Shown here one piece after another: positions 11,861 to 61,480 of a stretch of 64,000 nt of DNA. The stretch is taken from contig OX597831.1 in NCBI GenBank assembly GCA_951406725.2, forward strand, positions 42,904,001 to 42,968,000, given 5' to 3'. Position 1 is the stretch's first letter. Every line of letters starts with the position of its first letter. The position numbers and the translations under genes were made by a program. Source of the DNA: Octopus vulgaris. Its lineage: Eukaryota. The notes under the pieces are model-generated. The model saw nothing but the letters and a program-made list of their open reading frames with translations. It was not told the DNA's origin and made no database searches.

Positions 11861-12497
11861 CATATATGGGTACAGGCAAACGAGAGACAGAAGATGGAAG
11901 ATACGAGAATTTTCATTAATCACTACAATTGTTTCAAATTACTACACAACATGCACACAAACAACTTATATCTGCATAAACACATACAGGCACACAAAGC
12001 TGAACGACATGCAGACCGGATACACTGGCTTGGGAAGAATTGCAATTCCTGAGTCACAGGTGTAGTACAATAGACTTGCATCAGCCAGAAGGCTTGTGAG
12101 TTAGCCATGCGGAAAAGTAGTTAATAATTGGATGCAATCTGAAAAAGGGATTGACATAATGTCGCCATAACTTATAAATATAATGAAAAAAATATACTCT
12201 ACATGGTAATAGCATTTGCAATCGTATCCTTTATCTTCCTTCTTTCAAATATTACGTATTGTATAACACCAATACTATGACATACATACAGAGTATAATT
12301 GAAGAATAACGAGTTCTCCGCATTATATATACTCAAACACATACAAATGTCTATGTTTTAGTGAATGTATTTATGCATTTCTACAGATATAAGTTGCTTG
12401 TGTGCATGTTGTGTAGTAATTTGAAACAATTGTAGTGATTAATGAAAATTCTCCTATCTTCCATCTTCTGTCTCTCATTTGCCTGTACCCATATATG
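11861..12497. mobile_element. Element with ~113-bp inverted arms inserted in (TA)n; putative Penelope-like inverted termini
   Basis: 11861-11974 is the reverse complement of 12383-12497; both arms carry GAAACAATTGTA; ~410-bp non-coding spacer. Confidence 0.6.
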
Positions 12498-13941: not shown

Positions 13942-14115
13942 CATATTTACATACATTATTTATATATATATATATATATTTACATACATTATATATATAA
14001 TAATAATGAGGCAGAATGCTAAACTGAAAGCAAATTTTAATATAAATGGGTGCAAAAAAGATTAAAAAAGGAAATCAAAAATATGGAACGCTTCACAAAT
14101 TTGCATGTCATCCTT

Positions 14116-14222
14116 GTACTCGCTACTGCGGTACATATTCTAAAATTGGAACAATACAGAGAAAATTAGCATGGCTCCTGCGTAAGGATGACATGCAAAT
14201 TCGTGAAGCATTCCATATTTTT
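14116..14222 (+). pseudogene. U6: Full-length (107 nt) diverged U6 snRNA copy inside a fold-back insert (13997-14303)
   Basis: gtactcgct..gcggtacatattctaaaattggaacaatACAGAGAaaattagcatggctcctgcgtaaggatgacatgcaaattcgtgaagcattccatattttt is colinear with metazoan U6. The upstream flank is an inverted copy of its own 3' end rather than a PSE/TATA promoter. Confidence 0.93.
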
Positions 14223-14369
14223 GATTTTTCTTTTTTAATCTTTCTTACACCCATTTACATTAAAATTTGCCTTCAGTTTAGCATTATGCCTTATTATTAT
14301 TATGTTTTCCTTTCCTATCATTTCTCCACATGCTCTTAACACAACCCCACCATTTACTGATCTATATAT

Positions 14370-25581: not shown

Positions 25582-27056
25582 TAACCCTTTAGCATTTAAA
25601 CTGGCCAGCCAAATGGAGATGTATGGCTTAGTAGTTAAGGTGCTGTACTCATGATCATACAGGAATAAATAAAAATAATAATAACAATAATGCTTTCAAT
25701 AATAATAATCATCTTACCCCTCGAATGTCACTAGAAACAGTAGAAGACCTACAACCTTCAAATTTCTTCCTATGATTATTAGACTGCCAGTTATTACTTA
25801 TGTTGTTGTTGTTGTTGTCAACCTTGTTTTTTTTAATCCAGATCAGCTCTGATCAGACAAACAGACAGAGAGACTGACAGTCAGATAAACAGAGAGACAG
25901 ACAGACCTATGATTACAAAAGTGTTTCAGCTGGTAACAAATCTGTTCTATATTTTCCTGGAAATAGTCAATGCCATTATTACCTAACATGTCCCTTGGAG
26001 ATTGATTGTGGTTTCGATTCCTGGACTGGGTGATGTGTTGTGTTCTTGAGCAAAACACTTCATTTCACAATGCTCCAATCTATTCAGCAAGTAAAAATTA
26101 GTAATCCTGTGATGGAGTGGTGTCTCATCCGGGGAGAAATATGTATGCTAAAAAAAGGTTACCTTCTCGAGTCATGCTAACCGACAATGGTTGGCTTCTT
26201 AGTTTCAAAGGTATATAAGTTCCCTACCTGCATGGGATGCCGGTCCATTGCAGGATTACTCATTTTTGTCAGTTGAGTGGACTGGAGCAACATAAGATGA
26301 AGTACATTATTTATATTCGACAGATATTTGTCCTCATCTTGTTTGTTGTTAACACATTTCGGCTGATGTACCTTCCAGCTTCTTCAGGTGTCTTGGGGAA
26401 ATTTCAAACCTGGGTTCTCATTCCTAAGGTATTTTTCGATGTTATTATTATTACTATTGTTCAGATCACTGCTTGGAATCGAACTTGGAATCTTGGAGTT
26501 AGTAGCCTGTGCTCTTAACCACTACACCATACGCCCGTGGGCAAATGAAGAAGGCTGAAGAAGGCTGGAGGGTATATCAGCTGAAACATTGTGTTAACAA
26601 CAAACAAGATGAGGACAAATATCCGTCAAATGTAAATAATGTAAATAATGTACATAATTCCTCATCTCTTAAATATAGAATTGTATTATAAAATGAAGTG
26701 TTTTGCTCAAGAACACAACATGTCACCCGAATTGAAACCCCTATCTTATGATCATGAGTCCAACACCCTAACCACTAAGTCATGCAACTCCGCTATATAT
26801 GTTAGAGAAACCGGTAAACTGGTCCTATGCTTCTTATGGAGTAATGTGGACTAACCATATCTAGCTAAAATATTCTCCCTTTTTGTCATATTCAAAGTGG
26901 CCAGTTCTGGTCTCTTACACCAACCCTATAATAACATTTTTAAAATAGTTGCCCCATCAAAATCTCAAAGCTATATGATGCATAATTAATTTCAAAACAA
27001 TGTGAATAAATAAGCATTACTTTTGACAGAGTAAGGAGAATGATAATGGGCTTGAT
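25582..27056. mobile_element. piggyBac-type MITE split by nested insertions
   Basis: Left end taacccttttagcatt, degenerate right end aatgataatgggcttga; body resumes at ~26855 after nested SINEs. Confidence 0.45.
26303..26687 (-). mobile_element. tRNA-headed SINE ending in a minimal type I hammerhead, with an inverted partial 3' copy
   Basis: Minus strand 26537 to 26303: A-box TGGTGTAGTGG, B-box GTTCGATTCC, (AAT)n linker, gacac-CTGAAGA-agctg..cagcc-GAAA..gtgtt. Plus strand 26555-26640 is a second hammerhead and tail copy. TSD-like ataa(g/a)atgaagt on both sides. Confidence 0.8.
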
Positions 27057-29268: not shown

Positions 29269-29676
29269 ATGTCTGTGCTACAAGATATTAAAAAAGGGAA
29301 AAAAATCTCCAATCTTGATGCAAGGTCAGCAATTTTGAGGGTAAGGGTGAGTTGATTACATTGACCACATTGCTCAGCTGGTACTTATTTTATCAACATT
29401 GAATAAATGACAAGCAAAATTAACATTGGTGACATTTGAACTCAGAATGTAAACAACCAAAAGAAACACAGCTGAGCATTTTGTCTGGGATGTTAATGAT
29501 TCCACTAGCTTGTTGCCTTAAAGCAGGCACGGATGTGTGGTAAGAAGCTTGTTTCCCGAGCACATGGTTCTGAGTTCAGCCCCACTATGTGGCACCCTGG
29601 GCAACTGTCTTCTACTATAGCTTCGGGCCAACCAAAGCCTTGTGAGTGGATTTTGTAGACAGAAAATGAAAGAAGC

Positions 29677-29720
<44 letters not shown>

Positions 29721-35820: not shown

Positions 35821-37111
35821 TATTGGGTCATCCTATAAATAATGTAGTTTTTTTTATACTTCTTTTATTTTTCAAAATTAAGATAAGCAAAGTTCTTTTT
35901 TAATATAATACATACTCTCCTTCATTTTCTACAATGCTCTTCCATCTATCTGTTAGACTTGCAAGGCTCCACTTCCAAAATTCACTTGTCTGTGATGAGA
36001 AATACTCCTCCATTACTGTTCTGACCTCATCTACAGAATTCATATTTTTTCCATCCAAATGATTCTGAAGATGTAGAATGATAATCAGATGGGGCAATGT
36101 TCAGCGAATATGGTGGGTGGCGCATTATTTCCCTTTCAAATTGCTCCAGCCTCAGGAATGCCATCCTCACTGTATGTGTTCAAGCATTATCCTGATAGAA
36201 GAACACCTTTCATCTTGAAACCAAAGATGGTTGTTTTTCTTCTAGCGCTGACTTGAGCTGCTCAAGCTGCTTGCAGTAGATCTCCTTTGTTATCGTTTGG
36301 TTTGGGTTTAAAAGTTCAAAGTGGACTAAACCTTTCATATCCCACCACACAGATAACAGCACCTTACGTGTGTGAAGACCTTCATTAACCTGGGGTGCCA
36401 GTGTTTCTCCTTTCTCTACCCACTGTCTTCGGTCCTTGACATTTTTATAGAGAACCAGTTTCTCTTTATCAGTCACTATTTGGTCCAAAAAATGGTCCAT
36501 TTGTGAGGCATGACAGCAAAGAAGAGCACACATTCACTCTCTGCATACAATTAAACTCAGAAAGTTTGTGAGGAACCCATTGACTCAATTTGCTGACTTT
36601 TCCGATGGCATACAGGCATTGATGAATGGTTGAATGACCAAATCCAAGCTTCTCTGCTGGTTCCTCAACAGTTATGATGGGATTTTGTTCCACCACAGTT
36701 TGCAGGATATCTTCATCAAGCTCTACAGGTCTTCCAGGACAAGACTTGTCTTCTAGGCTGTAGTTTCTAGCTCGGAATTTCTGGAACCACTGTTGACACT
36801 GGCTTACGCTTATTGTCCAATCCCCATATACTGCATTAATATTCCTTGCATTTTCCATTGCATTGTTGCCTTCATTGAACTCATAAAGAAAAAAAAATGC
36901 TGAATATTTTCCTTCATCACTTCCATTATAGCTTTGGAAAAATAACTGTTAAAATCGAACTACACTCTTCAAAACTTGCACTAAGAATAAGTACAAGGTA
37001 AAATTACTAATTGCTTTTATAGCAAGTTGATACAGGTAGCTTATCCTGTTCCCCTGCGACTTTTAGTTCATGCAATTGAAAAAAATGCATTATTTATGGG
37101 ATGACCCAATA
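35821..37111 (-). mobile_element. Full-length mariner (DD34D) transposon, pseudogenised
   Basis: TIRs tattgggtcatcctataaataatg / cattatttatgggatgacccaata with TA ends; WFQKFR, WVPHKLS, IVTDKEK, KVLLSVWWD, HPPYSLNIAPSDYH. Confidence 0.95.
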
Positions 37112-43700: not shown

Positions 43701-44689
43701 CAAAGTCACAACAGCAAAACTAAGGTCATAATAAAAAACCAACCTAACCAGGAGGTGATAGATTTTTTTAAGGGCCCAGGAAGGTAGTCATTTACATCAA
43801 CTCAAGTATTTGGCTGTTTCTTCATTTCATCAACTGCAAAAAGATGAAAGGTGTAGTTGATCTTGAGATTTGAACTCAAAATCTACAGAGGCGTAGGAGT
43901 GGCTGTGTGGTAAGTAGCTTGCTTACGAACCACATGGTTCTGGGTTCAGTCCCACTGCATGGCACCTTGGGCAAGTGTCTTCTACTATAGCCTCAGGCCG
44001 ACCAAAGCCTTGTGAGTGGATTTGGTAAATGGAAACTGAAAGAAGCCCGTCGTGTGTGTGTGTGTGTTTGTGTTTGTGTGTGTATGTTTGTGTGTCTGAG
44101 TTTGTTCCTTCCATCATCGCTTGAAAACTGATGCTGGTGTGTTTACGTCCCCATAATTTAGCGGTTCAGCAAAGAGACCGATAGAATAAGTACTGGGCTT
44201 ACAAAAAATAAGTCCCGGGGTCGATTTGCTTGACTAAAGGCAGTGCTCCAGCATGACCACAGTCAAACGACTGAAACAAGTACAAGAGTAAAAGAGTAAA
44301 AAGTAAAGATAGCTGGAAGAAACATCACTAAGTGTTTGGTGTGAAACACTAACAATTTTGCCAGTTCACAGCTCTCCAATAATAATGTTTTCAAATTTTG
44401 GCACAAAGCAAGCAATTCTGGGGGTAGTGGGGGGGGGTAGTATGTGTGTAGACAATAGGCAATACCTTCAGCCCCCAGTACTTGACTGGTACCTATTTTA
44501 TTAACCACAAAATGATGAATTGCAAAGTTAACCTCAGCAGAAGTTAAAATGAGAACATTAAGAGCCAGAAGAACTGATGTTAGGCATTTTGTCTCCTGCA
44601 CTAACCATTCTGCCAGCTTGCCAACTTGATAATAATAATAATCCTTTCTACTATAGGCATAAGGCCTGAAATTTTTTGGGAGGAGGTGA

Positions 44690-50731: not shown

Positions 50732-51134
50732 ATTATTCATACTATGTGGGATGTAAATTATGGTTGTATTATGATATATTCATATTTGTTTATTTATATA
50801 TATATATATATATATATAGTAAGATAGGGGTTATGGATGTAACCCACTATGGGATATTAATTATTCAATATACTGTTGGTAAAGTACCCAAATTCTTAAT
50901 ACACAAATGTTTTTAATTGCAATGCAATTAATTCATTTATTGTTTTAAATGGGTGAAGGTAAAGAAATATTTTTACTGTAAATTTATAATACAAATAAGA
51001 AAATGGAGAAATAAATTCAGTTTGTTCATCAACTTACAGATATTATTATGGGTATATCTTTCAGAAAGATATACCCATAATAATATCTGTAAGTTGATGA
51101 ACAAACTGAATTTGTTTCTCCATTTTCTTATTTG

Positions 51135-51170
<36 letters not shown>

Positions 51171-51654: not shown

Positions 51655-54576
51655 ATAATAATAATAATAATAATAATTGTGTACAGTGCTCAGGTGCACT
51701 ACAACTCATCTAAAGTGTATATATAATCAGGTGAAGTTTCGGCGGATTTCGGAAAGCATGAGGGCCTTAAAAGATGCAGTGTCATGGCAGTCAACAACTG
51801 ACGCAGGCAGTTTATTCCATGCTTCAGCAACTCTGAGCGTGAAAAAATGTTTCCGAAAGTCATGGGAGCTGTATTGTTTTCTGACTTTGTAGGCATGTCC
51901 ACGTGTGTTAGACACATGGAGATCAAAAAGGTGTTCAGTGTTGTTGTTGGTGAGGTGGTTGATAACTTTGTGGGTGTTTACCAAGTCCGTCGCCAAACGC
52001 CGGAGCTTCAGTGAATCCATGCCCAGGGAAACAAGGCGCTCAGAATATGGTAGGTGTCTGATGGAGGGTATGCGTTTGGTTGCACGTCTCTGGACAGATT
52101 CCAGGAGGTCAATGTTCTGTGCAAGATAGGGGTTCCAAACTGATGATGCGAATTCCAAGTGTGGTCGTACCATAGCTGTATACAGTTTTAAATAGATGGC
52201 TGGAGAGCGGCTAACAAAAGACCTGCTGAGTGATGCCAAGACACCCTCGGCCTTCCTGACAATCTTAGAGATATGCTTTGACCAACGCAAATCACTGCTG
52301 ACAGTGATGCCTAGGTCACGCTCGCAAGAGGATTTCTTGATATCAGTGTTGTGGAGGGAGTATGTGAACGCAGGGTTTTTTCTCCCAAAATGCATGGTGG
52401 TACACTTGTCCACAGCCAGTTTCAGTTGCCAGTCTGTGATCCATTGCTGCATTGTGTCTAGGTCTGATTGCAGGAAAGAGTTGTAGACATCAGGATCTGT
52501 CCTCTTGATTTCAAGGTACAGCTTGATGTCGTCTGCATATTTCAATACTGTGGCATTCTTTAAATTGGCATCTATGTCGTTAATGTATGCCACAAACAAG
52601 AGGGGGCCAAGGACAGATCCCTGTGGTACACCCGATGACATCTCATATGGTGTAGAGTGCTGTCCTAGAACTGTGACTACCTCCTTTCGGCTGAGGATGA
52701 AGGATTTCAACCAGTTAAAAAGGTCATCCCCCACACCCATTGCAGAGAGTTTCACCATAAGCCTTTTGTGTGGCACAGAGTTGAAAGCCTTAGCAAAGTC
52801 AAGGTAGACAACATCCACCCATGAGCCACTGTCAGTAATCTGAGTAATGTCCTCAAGGAACTCGACAAGCTGGTCACCGCAGCTGGAGTTAGGGACAAAT
52901 CCATATTGTGAGGGTCGGATGAGACTGTGAGAGCTCCAGAAGTTCCAGAGTGTTTCTCTGACACACGATTCCATCAGTTTTGCAATACAGCTAGTGAGAC
53001 TGACTGGGCGATAGTTGACAGGTGATGTGCGGTCGCCCTTTTTGAACAGAGGAATGACACTGGCAGTTTTCCACTGCTCCGGAGTAGCACCATTGTTGAG
53101 ACAGTACTGGAAGAAAATAGAAAGCTGGTGTAAAAGGAAGTGCCTGCCACGTTTGAGAAGCAGGTATGTAACTCCATCGAGACCAGGGGAGGCATAGTTG
53201 CGCTTATTTTGAAGGTGACGTCGCAGCATTGCAGGTGTAAATTCCATAGTTGTTATGGAGTTTGCTGTTAGTGATGGTGAAGATGGTACATTTTGACTTT
53301 CAACAGTGAATATGTTTGCATAGCACTCGGCAATGAGTTCTGCGCATTCCTTGGGGTCGTCAGTGATCTGGTTTGTGTGAGGGTTGCGAAGAGGGCCCAC
53401 TGGAGAGTGAGGTCTCTGCTTTGAGTGCACATATTTCCAGAAAACCTTGCTGTCAGGATTGGCTGCTATGCACTGTTCAAATTCAAGCACTGCTTTTTTT
53501 GTCACTTGCTTGAGATGGTTGGAGGATTTATTCCGCTTCTTCCTGTTGGTGTCTGATTTATGCAACCTGTATTCCCGTTCAGCAGTCCGACGTTCCCTCC
53601 TGGCAAGTCGGACCGCTGAAGTTTCCCAAATTGCCCTTTTGGGGCGGTTCTTCTTTTTTTGTTTACGTGGCACTGATGCTGCACATGCTGCCCATATTGA
53701 GTCCAGGATACTCTGGAGTATAGTATTCACATCTCCAGAGTTGTAGAATTCACGCCAGTTTGGGTGCTGTAGTTCAGTGTGGTACAGGTTCCAATCTGCT
53801 CTCTTCCAATCGAAGGAAGCAGATTGGAGATGGTTCAGGTTTTTGTTGCCCGCAAGAGCCAGATTGGCGATGATCATAGCATGATCAGAGTCACCTAGAG
53901 GTTCCTCCGTAGTGCAATTGATAACCGCTTCAGGAGTTGTGGTGAAGAGCAGGTCCAAGGTGTTGTCGCCTCTTGTTGGAGAGGTGACTACTTGTGACCA
54001 GTTTGAGTCCAGCACAAGCTCAACAAAATCGTTTGCACTCTGTGGCCAATGGAAGGTCTCCCAATCGATCTCAGGATGATTGAAATCGCCTGCAATAAAC
54101 ACATAAGTGGCTGTTTTCCTGGCAGCAGCTCGGAGGACATTGCAAAGCTGTGTGTCCCGATGGTAACTTGGGGGACGATAAACAACGCCAAGCAGGAGTG
54201 TTGACATGGTCATACGCACGTCACAGAAAAAAACTTCTTCTTGTGATTCGTTCAAATCGGCACAAGGAATTACCAAAAAATTTGAACGAACGTAGACCAT
54301 CACACCACCACCACGGCGGTTAGTGCGGTCCTTACGGAAGAGGTTGTACCCCGTAATGTTGAAAACCCCATCACAGAGTAAGGAATGCGCCCATGTTTCC
54401 GTGACAGTGATGAAGTCAGGGTCAACACTTCTGACGTAGGCGTTGAACAAATGTATTTTGTTGCATAAACTGCGAGCATTTAAGGACAACAATTTGTACC
54501 CTGCTCGCAGTTTATGATGGTGTGTAGAGGATGGCAGGTTGTTCTGGCTTAGTTTCCCTGAGTTGCTGTAGTTTTT
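51655..54576 (-). mobile_element. CR1-like LINE, 5'-truncated just upstream of ORF2, with (ATT)n tail
   Basis: Uninterrupted ORF2, ~50-nt 3' UTR, (ATT)n tail at 51655-51677; sharp GC rise relative to flanks. Confidence 0.93.
51727..54492 (-). CDS. LINE ORF2: apurinic endonuclease plus reverse transcriptase (CR1-like), 921 aa, no AUG start
   Basis: APE motifs NARSL, VTETW, GGGV, YRPP, GDFN, LDL, SDH; RT motifs PGLDG, YRPVSL, QYGF, LDFAKAF, GVPQGSVLGPLLF, YADD, DLG. Confidence 0.93.
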   Translation of the reverse strand: MLSLNARSLCNKIHLFNAYVRSVDPDFITVTETWAHSLLCDGVFNITGYNLFRKDRTNRRGGGVMVYVRSNFLVIPCADLNESQEEVFFCDVRMTMSTLLLGVVYRPPSYHRDTQLCNVLRAAARKTATYVFIAGDFNHPEIDWETFHWPQSANDFVELVLDSNWSQVVTSPTRGDNTLDLLFTTTPEAVINCTTEEPLGDSDHAMIIANLALAGNKNLNHLQSASFDWKRADWNLYHTELQHPNWREFYNSGDVNTILQSILDSIWAACAASVPRKQKKKNRPKRAIWETSAVRLARRERRTAEREYRLHKSDTNRKKRNKSSNHLKQVTKKAVLEFEQCIAANPDSKVFWKYVHSKQRPHSPVGPLRNPHTNQITDDPKECAELIAECYANIFTVESQNVPSSPSLTANSITTMEFTPAMLRRHLQNKRNYASPGLDGVTYLLLKRGRHFLLHQLSIFFQYCLNNGATPEQWKTASVIPLFKKGDRTSPVNYRPVSLTSCIAKLMESCVRETLWNFWSSHSLIRPSQYGFVPNSSCGDQLVEFLEDITQITDSGSWVDVVYLDFAKAFNSVPHKRLMVKLSAMGVGDDLFNWLKSFILSRKEVVTVLGQHSTPYEMSSGVPQGSVLGPLLFVAYINDIDANLKNATVLKYADDIKLYLEIKRTDPDVYNSFLQSDLDTMQQWITDWQLKLAVDKCTTMHFGRKNPAFTYSLHNTDIKKSSCERDLGITVSSDLRWSKHISKIVRKAEGVLASLSRSFVSRSPAIYLKLYTAMVRPHLEFASSVWNPYLAQNIDLLESVQRRATKRIPSIRHLPYSERLVSLGMDSLKLRRLATDLVNTHKVINHLTNNNTEHLFDLHVSNTRGHAYKVRKQYSSHDFRKHFFTLRVAEAWNKLPASVVDCHDTASFKALMLSEIRRNFT

Positions 54577-55473: not shown

Positions 55474-55791
55474 CATTATTTACATTTGATGGACATTTGT
55501 CCTCATCTTGTTTGTTGTTAACACAAGGTTTCAGCTGATGTACTCTCCAGCTTTCATCAGGTATCCTGGGGGAATTTCAAACCTGGGTTTTCATTCCTAA
55601 GGTTTTTTCCAATGTTATTATTATTATTATTCAGGTTACTGCTTGGAATCGAACTCATGTGGTGTAGTGATTAAGAGCACGGGCTACTAACCCCAAGATT
55701 CTGTGTTCGATTCCAAGTAGTAACCTGAATAATAATAATAATAATAATAACATTGGAAAAATACCTTTGGAATTAGAACTCAGGTTCGAAA
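55474..55791. mobile_element. Second locus of the tRNA-head/hammerhead SINE, again as a head-to-head inverted pair
   Basis: Minus strand 55656 to 55474: B-box to tail with gatac-CTGATGA-aagctg..cagct-GAAA-cctt-gtgtt. Plus strand 55657-55791: tRNA head and linker. Confidence 0.8.
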
Positions 55792-55860
55792 ACGATGATG
55801 AGGATGATATATATATATCATTCTCATCATCGTTTAACATCTGCTTTCCGTGTGTGTGTG

Positions 55861-59727: not shown

Positions 59728-61043
59728 GCTGGTTTTCAGAACATTACTTACATAAAATTATGGTGGAAAATTTTAATGTAGAGCATAAATATATTAAAAT
59801 ATCAAAGTTTTGTGTCATATATCCAGACACAGTTTGTGAGTAGATTGATATTAAAAGGGTTAAAGATATTTTGCACATTTCAAATAAAAATTTGAGAATT
59901 CATAAGATGAAATGTTTCTCAATTTAAAAGATGCAGAATGAATAAACTTTCTATTTTCCAAAATCTAATAATGAAGGAGCTTCTATGCAATCAGGAAGCC
60001 TAATCCTGCTAGAAATAGCAACCATATATCTCTCTTGAATTAGTGTTATTATTGTAGAGATGAATTGGATATATGAGAGCTCTGAGTACTCTATACCTGG
60101 GGAAAAATACAGAATGGTCATATGAAGAAATGCTTTGAGATTGGGCTTGGATTAATCAGAGGTGACCAATACAAGCAATAACAGTCACATTGATGATCAC
60201 TCTAAAAGTTTACTTGGGGAGAGAAACAAAAATCATTGCACAAACTTTCTGTTTAGAAAAAGAATTACATTAAAAAAAACTTTCAGTTAAAAGTTGAATA
60301 TAATGAATCATGACAAGCGAATTTATCATGAATAAAATGACAAAATAAAAAGCAAAGAAAGAAATACAATCACAGACCTAGTACTTTGTTAGTATATAGA
60401 AAAGAACAAAACACATAAAACTGCGCTGAGTGAAAATAAAGAAATAAAAGGCGTAAAGTAGAATCTTAGTACATATGGAGTACACCCATGATGTGACATA
60501 AAAAGAAAGAAAGTAAGAACAATCGAAAGATAAAACATCACAAATAGCATGACAAAAAGCGACTACTTCAGTGAATGGAAAATACAGACAGGTTACTATA
60601 TAGCTGGATATATATAAACTAACAAACAATGAATGTTCATGAATCAGTAATTCACAATTACATAAGCAAAAACATTGCTAGATTTATGAAAAAAAAAAAA
60701 AAAGAAGTTTTTTTTAATAGTTTATTATATATTGAATTACTTTTGGGATCATTACACCAATTCACAAATAACAACCCTGAGTCATATAACAATGCTTTAT
60801 GATAACATTGACATAAAATTTACATCATCATCATCTGGACAGGCTGGGAGAGTCAATCGCAGTAGGGTTTGAACCATGGTTCTGATAATGCTTTCTACCA
60901 TCGACATGGGGCCTCAAATTTAGGGGAAGGGTCCTAATTGATTACATTAATTCCAGTGCTTGACCACTTCTTATTTTACTACGCACAAAAGGATGAAAGG
61001 CAAAGTAAAGCTTAGCAGAATTTGAACACAGAATTTGAACATT

Positions 61044-61277
61044 AAGGTGGCGAGCTGGTAGAAACGTTAGCACACCGGGCTAAATGTTTAGTGATATTTT
61101 GTCTGTCGTTACGTTCTGAGTTCAAATTCCACCGAGGTCGACTTTACCTTTCATCTTTTCAGGGTCGATAAATTAAGTACCAGTTACGCACTGGGATCGA
61201 TGTAATCGGCTTAATACCTTTGTCTGTCTTTGTTTGTCCCCTCTATGTTTAGCTCCTTGTGGGCAATAAAGAAATAA
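61044..61277 (+). mobile_element. Family A SINE nested in an older family A SINE
   Basis: Full head to tail; gaatttgaaca is duplicated on both sides. Confidence 0.85.
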
Positions 61278-61480
61278 GAATTTGAACACAGAACATAAAA
61301 TTGAGAGAAATGCCACTTAGCATTTTCTTGGAAGTTCTAATGATTCCGCAGGCTTGCTGCCCTAAGTATGGCTCAGATAATAAAAATATATAACATACGC
61401 ACGAGGCCACATATTTTGAGAAAGAGATAGTCAATTAAATGAATCTCAGTATTTGAATGGTAATATATATTATAGATATT

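What the first reader, a model, noticed from the sequence alone, without database searches (positions are those of the whole stretch)
55474..55791. Independent second locus of the tRNA-hammerhead SINE, again head-to-head, with canonical CUGAUGA
Seen: same family as 26303-26687 but with a different junction. The minus-strand copy is truncated at the B-box and retains gatac-CTGATGA(55560-55554)-aagctg-gagagtacat-cagct-GAAA(55532-55529)-cctt-gtgtt. The plus-strand copy starts at the tRNA head (55657) and breaks off at ~55791. Position 7 of the core varies (A or T) between loci, as allowed in hammerheads. Inference: two of two loci being inverted pairs with different breakpoints points to a mechanistic property of insertion rather than chance.
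Basis: partly seen in the sequence, partly recalled or inferred. Interest (0 to 1): 0.72.

Follow-up and report, generated by a model that had tools for sequence, protein, structure and literature searches.

The report
tRNA-headed parasite of Penelope retrotransposons
A very common short repeat of octopuses, with a tRNA-like start and a hammerhead-ribozyme motif, sits here as a head-to-head inverted pair, the known footprint of Penelope-type retrotransposons, which likely copy it in place of the LINE elements that usually move such repeats.

Summary
A 5'-truncated minus copy (55657-55474) abuts a plus copy that starts in the tRNA-like head and breaks at 55791. The hammerhead at 55560 is the window's only strict match (0 in 200 shuffles). 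Both family loci are self-inverted; none of 64 control SINE pieces is.

The inversion is mechanistic but not new. An inverted 5'-truncated copy at the 5' end, an optional 30-40-bp tail and a minimal hammerhead (extra base after CUGANGA, palindromic helix III) are the published signature of Penelope-like elements (PLEs). Locus 26304-26687 shows the full pattern with a 12-bp TSD. Reads and contigs from four organisms show roughly 10^5 copies, the optional tail and a third head-to-head junction.

The unusual part is a tRNA-like A/B-box head on a PLE-type body, i.e. a SINE likely moved by a PLE rather than a LINE. Nine paper searches found no such octopus element described; Repbase and Dfam were not checked.

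Not shown: the autonomous partner, Pol III transcription, cleavage, covariation, or a genome-wide inversion rate. This copy's helix III is decayed, and the plus arm lacks its 3' half and any TSD.

The parts
55474..55657 (-). 5'-truncated copy: B box, (AAT)n, body, hammerhead motif, short 3' end without the optional tail
55520..55565 (-). Minimal type-I hammerhead motif of PLE type: helix I 5 bp, CUGAUGA plus extra A, helix II 6 bp, GAAA, decayed helix III (CC), UU; predicted cleavage between 55525 and 55524
   Evidence: only strict descriptor hit in the window, 0 in 200 shuffles; helix III not self-complementary; matches the PLE min-HHR consensus of PMC4209133
55646..55654 (-). B box at the truncated 5' end of the minus copy
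   Evidence: sequence
55656..55657 (.). Head-to-head junction, 2-nt overlap (CA)
55656..55791 (+). Inverted partner copy: tRNA-like head with A box 55660-55670 and B box 55705-55713, (AAT)n, breaks off before the hammerhead
   Evidence: best 5 of 12 weak blastn hits of the 26455-26546 head lie on annotated tRNA genes, E 0.2-10
55790..55835 (.). 46-nt near-perfect hairpin around (TA)n at the break of the plus arm; likely linked to the loss of its 3' half
   Evidence: z -9.9; the link is inference
26304..26543 (-). Sister locus: near full-length copy, head to short 3' end, no tail
26544..26687 (+). Sister locus: short duplicated junction piece, then an inverted 5'-truncated copy from the hammerhead core (26555) with the ~34-nt optional tail (about 26651-26684)
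   Evidence: the tail matches the loose-end consensus of all four runs
26292..26303 (+). Left copy of the 12-bp target-site duplication (11 of 12 identical), inside a family-B SINE
26688..26699 (+). Right copy of the 12-bp target-site duplication

Best explanation
This is a head-to-head pair of a roughly 280-nt non-coding repeat that joins a tRNA-like A/B-box head to a body carrying a Penelope-type minimal hammerhead motif and an optional 3' tail, and it is likely a non-autonomous element copied by the enzyme of a Penelope-like retrotransposon (PLE). Shown: the anatomy, the inversion at both window loci, the optional tail and the high copy number. Inferred steps: (1) RNA polymerase III transcribes a master copy from the head (no run of 4 T on the sense strand of any of the 4 pieces); (2) a PLE RT-GIY-YIG protein binds the pLTR-derived 3' part, cuts AT-rich DNA on both strands about 12 nt apart, and primes reverse transcription at one of two internal sites, giving ends with or without the tail; (3) cDNAs made from the two DNA ends meet and are joined at the element's 5' side, one usually truncated, which leaves a head-to-head pair with a variable breakpoint (self-priming on an antisense template, proposed in PMC3846280, would give the same product); (4) at this locus a later deletion likely removed the 3' half of the plus arm and the right-hand TSD. 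The hammerhead is probably an inherited pLTR feature that would cleave only as a dimer or with protein help, and this copy is predicted inactive.
For: Hammerhead: the family majority (loose ends) has the extra base after CUGAUGA, G10.1-C11.1, a CG helix III followed by UU, and a 5-bp helix I. These are the features listed for PLE min-HHRs (PMC4209133), which also notes pairs of min-HHRs 100-700 bp apart on opposite strands. Architecture: an inverted 5'-truncated copy adjacent to the 5' end and a 30-40-bp tail at one end only are described for PLEs (PMC8557442). Head-to-head is the usual form, with 8-10-bp TSDs and junction palindromes (PMC3846280). Locus 26304-26687 shows the inverted truncated copy, the one-sided tail and a 12-bp TSD. 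Tail in the family: 931 RNA reads continue into the tail against 1022 that leave at the short end into mixed flanks; both end classes occur in all three contig runs. Two RT start sites bounding the tail, cleavage of both strands and an AT-rich target were shown in vitro for a lizard PLE (PMC11167929). A third head-to-head joint, 26414/26533, is in 2 contigs of X2. Records passing the head's 5' end align about 3.3 further letters in all four runs, which fits a 20-nt terminal palindrome (inference from depth arithmetic). Both arms of this locus share two states absent from the 26304 copy, which fits a single event. The body reads as one open frame from an ATG through hammerhead and tail (P0004), as PLE pLTRs overlap the ORF start. 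A related family occurs as head-to-tail tandems (61 of 152 hit proteins carry 2-3 units) and in 4 copies runs on in frame into a shared coding stretch, about 95 aa in three of them.
Against: No autonomous partner was found: none of the 120 listed hits (of 372) of the profile search among longer proteins exceeds 371 aa or is a PLE ORF. Calling the shared stretch a PLE ORF N-terminus is recall; a longer-protein search, Pfam, the ESM Atlas, PDB and viral contigs gave nothing. This locus lacks a TSD and the plus arm lacks the 3' end where reverse transcription should start. The RNA run shows equal strands, 88% of reads running on into other sequence and no discrete starts or ends, so no free transcript or cleavage product was seen. 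Rfam and ARAGORN do not recognise the head as tRNA. 62 contigs of X2 share one 30-mer upstream of the head, so a longer parent element may exist. Only 1 of the 15 joints shown is opposite-strand (94 hidden). A U6 copy in this window is also head-to-head, so inversion is not confined to this family.
Confidence: 0.7

Rival explanations
1. Not a stand-alone SINE: the copies are solo pseudo-LTRs or 5'-truncated ends of a longer PLE (autonomous or not) whose repeat contains a tRNA-like piece, transcribed by Pol II from upstream. The inversion mechanism is the same.
For: 62 contigs of X2 share a 30-mer upstream of the head, agreement 0.85. RNA depth falls from the 3' end (about 2300 per strand) to the head (about 850). 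The body holds an open frame from an ATG (P0004). Rfam and ARAGORN do not call the head.
Against: An A box and B box 34 nt apart occur only at the two heads of this family in the window under my pattern (2 hits; shuffled mean 0.54). The head's best blastn hits lie on tRNA genes. At both window loci and in the X2 joint the longer arm starts within about 14 nt of the same head start. The sense strand has no T4.
Confidence: 0.15
2. An ordinary LINE-dependent SINE whose inversions arise by twin priming: the second target strand primes internally on the same RNA.
For: At this locus the inverted arm covers the 5' part and lacks a 3' end, as twin priming gives. An intact APE-RT LINE ORF lies 900 bp away (51727-54576).
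Against: The arms overlap by about 85 nt here, more than the abutting arms that twin priming usually leaves (recalled). At 26304-26687 both arms keep their own 3' ends, which one RNA primed twice cannot give. The element has no poly(A) or simple-repeat tail but two defined ends. Families A-E show no self-inversion (0 of 64).
Confidence: 0.07
3. Chance or DNA-level events: independent insertions next to each other, or fold-back repair at AT-rich hairpins, which this genome has in number.
For: Family A copies touch on opposite strands at 3 sites. Perfect or long hairpins lie at 55790-55835, 50989-51137 and 2332-2673, and a U6 copy is inverted. n is only 2 loci.
Against: One TSD encloses both arms at 26292-26699. 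The family-A contacts are mixed subfamilies or a nested copy with its own 17-bp TSD. Fold-back of one copy could not add a tail that the other arm lacks. Random pairing has P about 0.0003.
Confidence: 0.08

Closest known systems
EN+ Penelope-like elements (Penelope/Poseidon, Neptune) and their pLTR minimal hammerheads (PMC4209133, PMC8557442, PMC3846280, PMC11167929)
   Same: Minimal type-I hammerhead with an extra base between 9 and 10.1 and palindromic helix III; inverted 5'-truncated copy head-to-head; optional 30-40-bp tail; TSD of about 10 bp; AT-rich target; repeat overlapping an open frame.
   Different: No RT or GIY-YIG coding; about 280 nt; carries a tRNA-like A/B-box head; no head-to-tail tandem seen in the window or among the 15 joints shown.
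Animal non-LTR retrozymes, proposed non-autonomous PLE derivatives (10.64898/2026.07.22.740005; PMC7229834)
   Same: Short, non-coding, type-I hammerhead, likely moved by PLE proteins.
   Different: Those are defined as head-to-tail tandems with a hammerhead in each unit and circular RNA; no tRNA head is mentioned in the parts read. Here: dispersed inverted pairs with a tRNA-like head.
Schistosome SM-alpha / Sj-alpha SINE-like hammerhead repeats (as reviewed in PMC6765202)
   Same: Pol III-type promoter plus hammerhead in a SINE-like repeat.
   Different: Tandem repeats with an active ribozyme that frees monomers; the passages seen name no PLE partner, inverted insertion or tail. Here the ribozyme is of the minimal PLE type.
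tRNA-derived SINEs (octopus OK/OR1/OR2 of Ohshima and Okada 1994, seen only as a citation; names OK and OR1 recalled)
   Same: tRNA-like head, short, about 10^5 copies, frequent 5' truncation.
   Different: The 3' part looks PLE-derived rather than LINE-derived. Whether this family is one of those three, or is catalogued in Repbase/Dfam, could not be checked.

Membership tests
PLE minimal hammerhead (min-HHR) | CUGANGA and GAAA boxes with one extra nucleotide between 9 and 10.1 | tested here: met
PLE minimal hammerhead (min-HHR) | G10.1-C11.1 and palindromic 15.2-16.2 | tested here: inconclusive
   met by the family majority; not met by this copy (A-U pair; ACCU) nor, for helix III, by the other two window copies
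PLE minimal hammerhead (min-HHR) | Covariation of helices I and II across copies | tested here: inconclusive
   0 compensatory pairs in 3 copies; 90% of cells paired against 20-53% when slid
PLE minimal hammerhead (min-HHR) | Self-cleavage as a dimer or with protein | not testable with these tools
   no pile-up of RNA ends in one run
Penelope-like element insertions | Inverted 5'-truncated copy adjacent to the 5' end (head-to-head) | tested here: met
   2 of 2 window loci and one joint in X2
Penelope-like element insertions | Optional 30-40-bp tail at one end | tested here: met
   26651-26684 on one arm only; two end classes in all four runs; neither arm at 55474-55791 has it
Penelope-like element insertions | TSD enclosing the whole unit (often 8-12 bp, sometimes absent) | tested here: inconclusive
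   12 bp at 26292/26688; none convincing at this locus
Penelope-like element insertions | Partial head-to-tail tandems (pLTR) | tested here: inconclusive
   not seen for this family; seen for a related family in translated hits
Autonomous PLE | ORF with RT and GIY-YIG endonuclease | tested here: not met
   none in the element; no such ORF among 9 window ORFs scanned of 111 listed; no partner
tRNA-derived SINE | tRNA-derived head with A and B boxes | tested here: inconclusive
   boxes present and correctly spaced; weak hits on tRNA genes; no ARAGORN or Rfam call; parent tRNA not established
tRNA-derived SINE | Short, non-coding, high copy | tested here: met
   24,026, 10,820 and 23,240 contigs laid in three runs; summed depth over single-contig depth gives roughly 1.4-1.8 x 10^5, a rough figure
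tRNA-derived SINE | Pol III transcript | not testable with these tools
   no T4 on the sense strand; no discrete RNA in X23
tRNA-derived SINE | 3' end shared with a partner LINE | not tested
   no LINE library available; blastn finds no match of the element elsewhere in the window, including the LINE at 51727-54576
Non-LTR retrozyme | At least two tandem units each with a complete hammerhead | tested here: not met
   window copies are inverted, not tandem

The most novel reading that the evidence does not exclude
An undescribed class of SINE: a tRNA-promoter element that parasitises a Penelope-like retrotransposon instead of a LINE and reached about 10^5 copies in octopuses. The same enzyme may also retropose other Pol III RNAs (the head-to-head U6 copy at 14000-14310), making this family the largest natural record of how PLE inverted insertions form.
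Probability: 0.5. Interest if true: 0.68.

Novelty: new variant of a known kind. Interest (0 to 1): 0.5.

Why it matters
The inverted pair itself is explained by known Penelope biology and is not a discovery. What would matter is the partnership: SINEs are defined as LINE-dependent, and a tRNA-headed family moved by a PLE would widen that rule and may be hidden among the many unclassified octopus SINE families (893 of 900 recently active ones, PMC13282606). How PLEs make head-to-head insertions and optional tails is still open; about 10^5 short, easily aligned copies would let breakpoints, TSDs, tails and junction palindromes be tabulated at a scale autonomous PLEs do not offer. Each pair is also a ready-made double-stranded RNA when read through (z -14.5).

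Tried and rejected
No genome is held for the window. Exact motif scans found nothing in viral contigs, metagenomes or prokaryote genomes. Rfam gave no tRNA or hammerhead hit at any threshold tried. A first hammerhead descriptor without the extra base missed the motif. Single-strand folding of hammerhead and head pieces gave no significant z (-1.9 to +1.2). No RNA holder was listed among indexed runs; this is no evidence on expression. A-to-I editing: the RNA run lists more A>G and T>C places (43 and 71) than the contig runs (14-20 and 15-24), but most transversion classes rise as well and no DNA run of that organism was laid, so I draw nothing from it. The apparent G-C to A-U change at 10.1-11.1 in this copy is not taken as covariation, because U11.1 is a CpG decay common in the family (26360/26361 rows). 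The neighbouring APE-RT LINE was considered as partner and dropped for lack of shared sequence. Partner searches were blank. Earlier-findings look-ups by sequence, by place and by one word set were empty. Lunse et al. (PMC5785218) and the octopus genome paper (PMC4795812) were not held; supplementary file 1 of PMC4209133 was not searchable.

Full report
Observation. The sequence is as described. The family has four pieces in the window, at two loci: 26304-26543 (-) with 26555-26687 (+), and 55657-55474 (-) with 55656-55791 (+). At the locus in question the minus arm starts just before the B box and runs through the hammerhead to a short 3' end. The plus arm starts near the A box and stops after 136 nt, at a 46-nt hairpin around (TA)n. 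Both 5' ends face a junction with a 2-nt overlap. The arms overlap by about 85 nt with 7 mismatches, and share two states not found in the 26304 copy, which fits one event followed by decay.

Hammerhead. A type-I descriptor allowing one extra base after CUGANGA finds one strict site in 64 kb, at 55560 on the minus strand; 200 shuffles gave none. Rfam does not find it. Laying three contig runs and one raw RNA run on 26285-26555 shows the family majority: U at position 7, an extra A, G10.1-C11.1, a CG helix III followed by UU, and a 5-bp helix I. That is the minimal hammerhead described for PLE pseudo-LTRs (PMC4209133: main text parts 1-2 of 4; alignment passages in supplement file 2, where several listed motifs also end in C-G-U-U). 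That paper found low activity, only in dimers or with an engineered helix III. All three window copies have lost the helix III palindrome, so this copy is predicted inactive. Three copies show no compensatory pair, which is too few to test.

Is the inversion more than chance? Yes. I counted 64 pieces of five other repeat families in the window. None is an inverted copy of itself. Family A has opposite-strand contacts at three sites: two where one subfamily sits at or in another and one nested copy with its own 17-bp TSD. Fisher p is 0.0005 for 2 of 2 against 0 of 64, and 0.005 against 3 of 64; the family was chosen after the fact. Of 15 joints shown (of 109), one is opposite-strand: 26414/26533 in 2 contigs of X2, which can only be head-to-head given 31 letters on the shorter side. 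A genome-wide rate could not be measured.

What it is. Passages in PMC8557442 describe PLE insertions as often having an inverted 5'-truncated copy immediately adjacent to the 5' end and a 30-40-bp tail at one end only. Passages in PMC3846280 add that head-to-head is the usual form, with junction palindromes and 8-10-bp TSDs, and that pLTRs suffice for mobilisation in trans. PMC11167929 (parts 1-2 of 4) showed a lizard PLE protein cutting both strands at AT-rich sites and starting reverse transcription at two internal sites that bound the tail, with the hammerhead dispensable in vitro. The 26304-26687 locus is this structure in full: long arm without tail, inverted truncated arm with a 34-nt tail, one 12-bp TSD (11 of 12) inside a family-B SINE. 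The tail is optional across the family: 931 RNA reads enter it, 1022 leave at the short end into mixed flanks (531 more, at 26304, share one flank); contig counts are 98 v 324, 61 v 322 and 111 v 437. Records that pass the head's 5' end carry T at 26544 (336 of 342 RNA reads) and align about 3.3 more letters in all four runs, which fits a 20-nt terminal palindrome (inference).

Link to a PLE protein. The body reads as an open frame from an ATG through hammerhead and tail (P0002; P0004, a UniRef entry of Octopus bimaculoides), as expected where a pLTR overlaps the ORF start. Gene models of O. bimaculoides and O. sinensis begin in the same sequence, so the family is an octopus one. The searches also returned a related family (about 40-50% identical in translation) in head-to-tail tandems; four of its copies continue in frame into a shared stretch, about 95 aa in three. 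From memory that stretch resembles the N-terminus of Penelope/Poseidon ORFs, but six checks did not confirm it. No protein with RT and GIY-YIG domains was found carrying this N-terminus. The partner is therefore inferred, not shown.

The head. An A box and B box 34 nt apart match at the two heads and nowhere else in the window (shuffled mean 0.54). The best 5 of 12 weak blastn hits in the phage collection fall on annotated tRNA genes (E 0.2-10). No sense strand has four T in a row. ARAGORN and Rfam do not call it, and 62 contigs of X2 share an upstream 30-mer, so a longer parent remains possible. The RNA run laid 7,674 reads, equally on both strands, 88% running on into other sequence, with no pile-up of ends: read-through from host transcripts explains this, and it neither shows nor excludes a short Pol III RNA or cleavage. 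Summed depth over single-contig depth gives 1.4-1.8 x 10^5 copies in three organisms; the tool warns this is no copy number, but four pieces per 64 kb is of the same order for a genome of a few gigabases.

What does not fit. This locus is the weaker of the two: no TSD, and the plus arm lacks the 3' end where reverse transcription should begin. A later deletion at the adjacent hairpin is the simplest account and is untested. Twin priming would explain this locus alone but not the two 3' ends at 26304-26687. A U6 copy with about 90 nt of 3' flank is also head-to-head with a 5'-truncated copy of itself (107 of 116 identical), which fits either a PLE enzyme working in trans or a more general process.

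Comparison with what is known. It works like a non-autonomous PLE; it is not an autonomous PLE (no RT or endonuclease) nor a retrozyme as defined by tandem units (10.64898/2026.07.22.740005, parts 1-3 of 5; PMC7229834, passages). The nearest precedent for a Pol III promoter with a hammerhead is the schistosome SINE-like repeat (review passages, PMC6765202). Nine full-text searches and passages of octopus and mollusc repeat papers showed no tRNA-headed PLE derivative in octopus; the library lacks most subscription papers, and Repbase, Dfam and Ohshima and Okada 1994 could not be read. One earlier unchecked note of this scan (e1-7881736) reports a tRNA-like tandem unit with PLE-type ends in another animal genome; I did not test it.

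Verdict. Real feature, correctly observed. The inversion is the known PLE footprint; the tRNA-headed, likely PLE-driven SINE is a new variant of a known kind. Interest 0.5.

Noticed in passing
window 14000-14310: U6 snRNA copy (14116-14222, Rfam 102 bits) with about 90 nt of 3' flank, head-to-head with a 5'-truncated inverted copy of itself; both arms end at the same point in (TTA)n; no TSD of 7 bp or more found.
   Followed up: partly
window 55790-55835: 46-nt near-perfect hairpin around (TA)n exactly where the plus arm breaks off.
   Followed up: partly
window 50989-51137, 2332-2673, 11869-12489: Long near-perfect palindromes or terminal inverted repeats next to (TA)n tracts, MITE-like or fold-back.
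   Followed up: no
window 51727-54576 (-): Intact 949-codon frame with APE endonuclease and RT domains, a young LINE (CR1-type by recall).
   Followed up: partly
window 36472-36948 (-): Mariner transposase fragment (HTH_48, E 7e-13).
   Followed up: no
window 29312-29681, 43814-44051, 60938-61325: Family A SINEs inserted at or into each other on opposite strands; the 61042 copy has a 17-bp TSD.
   Followed up: yes
proteins P0003, P0104: Octopus gene models (one named dystrobrevin beta isoform X1) begin in this element's frame and leave it at the same position, hinting at a shared cryptic splice donor or a gene-prediction artefact.
   Followed up: no
proteins P0036, P0053, P0081, P0095: Related family in head-to-tail tandems of a 42-codon unit, running in frame into a shared coding stretch that may be the start of an autonomous PLE ORF.
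   Followed up: partly
window 26544: Beyond the head, records show either a palindrome-extending continuation or, in 62 contigs of X2, one shared upstream 30-mer.
   Followed up: partly
window 26285-26555, run X23: More A>G and T>C places in RNA than in contig runs, but other classes rise too; editing not established.
   Followed up: partly
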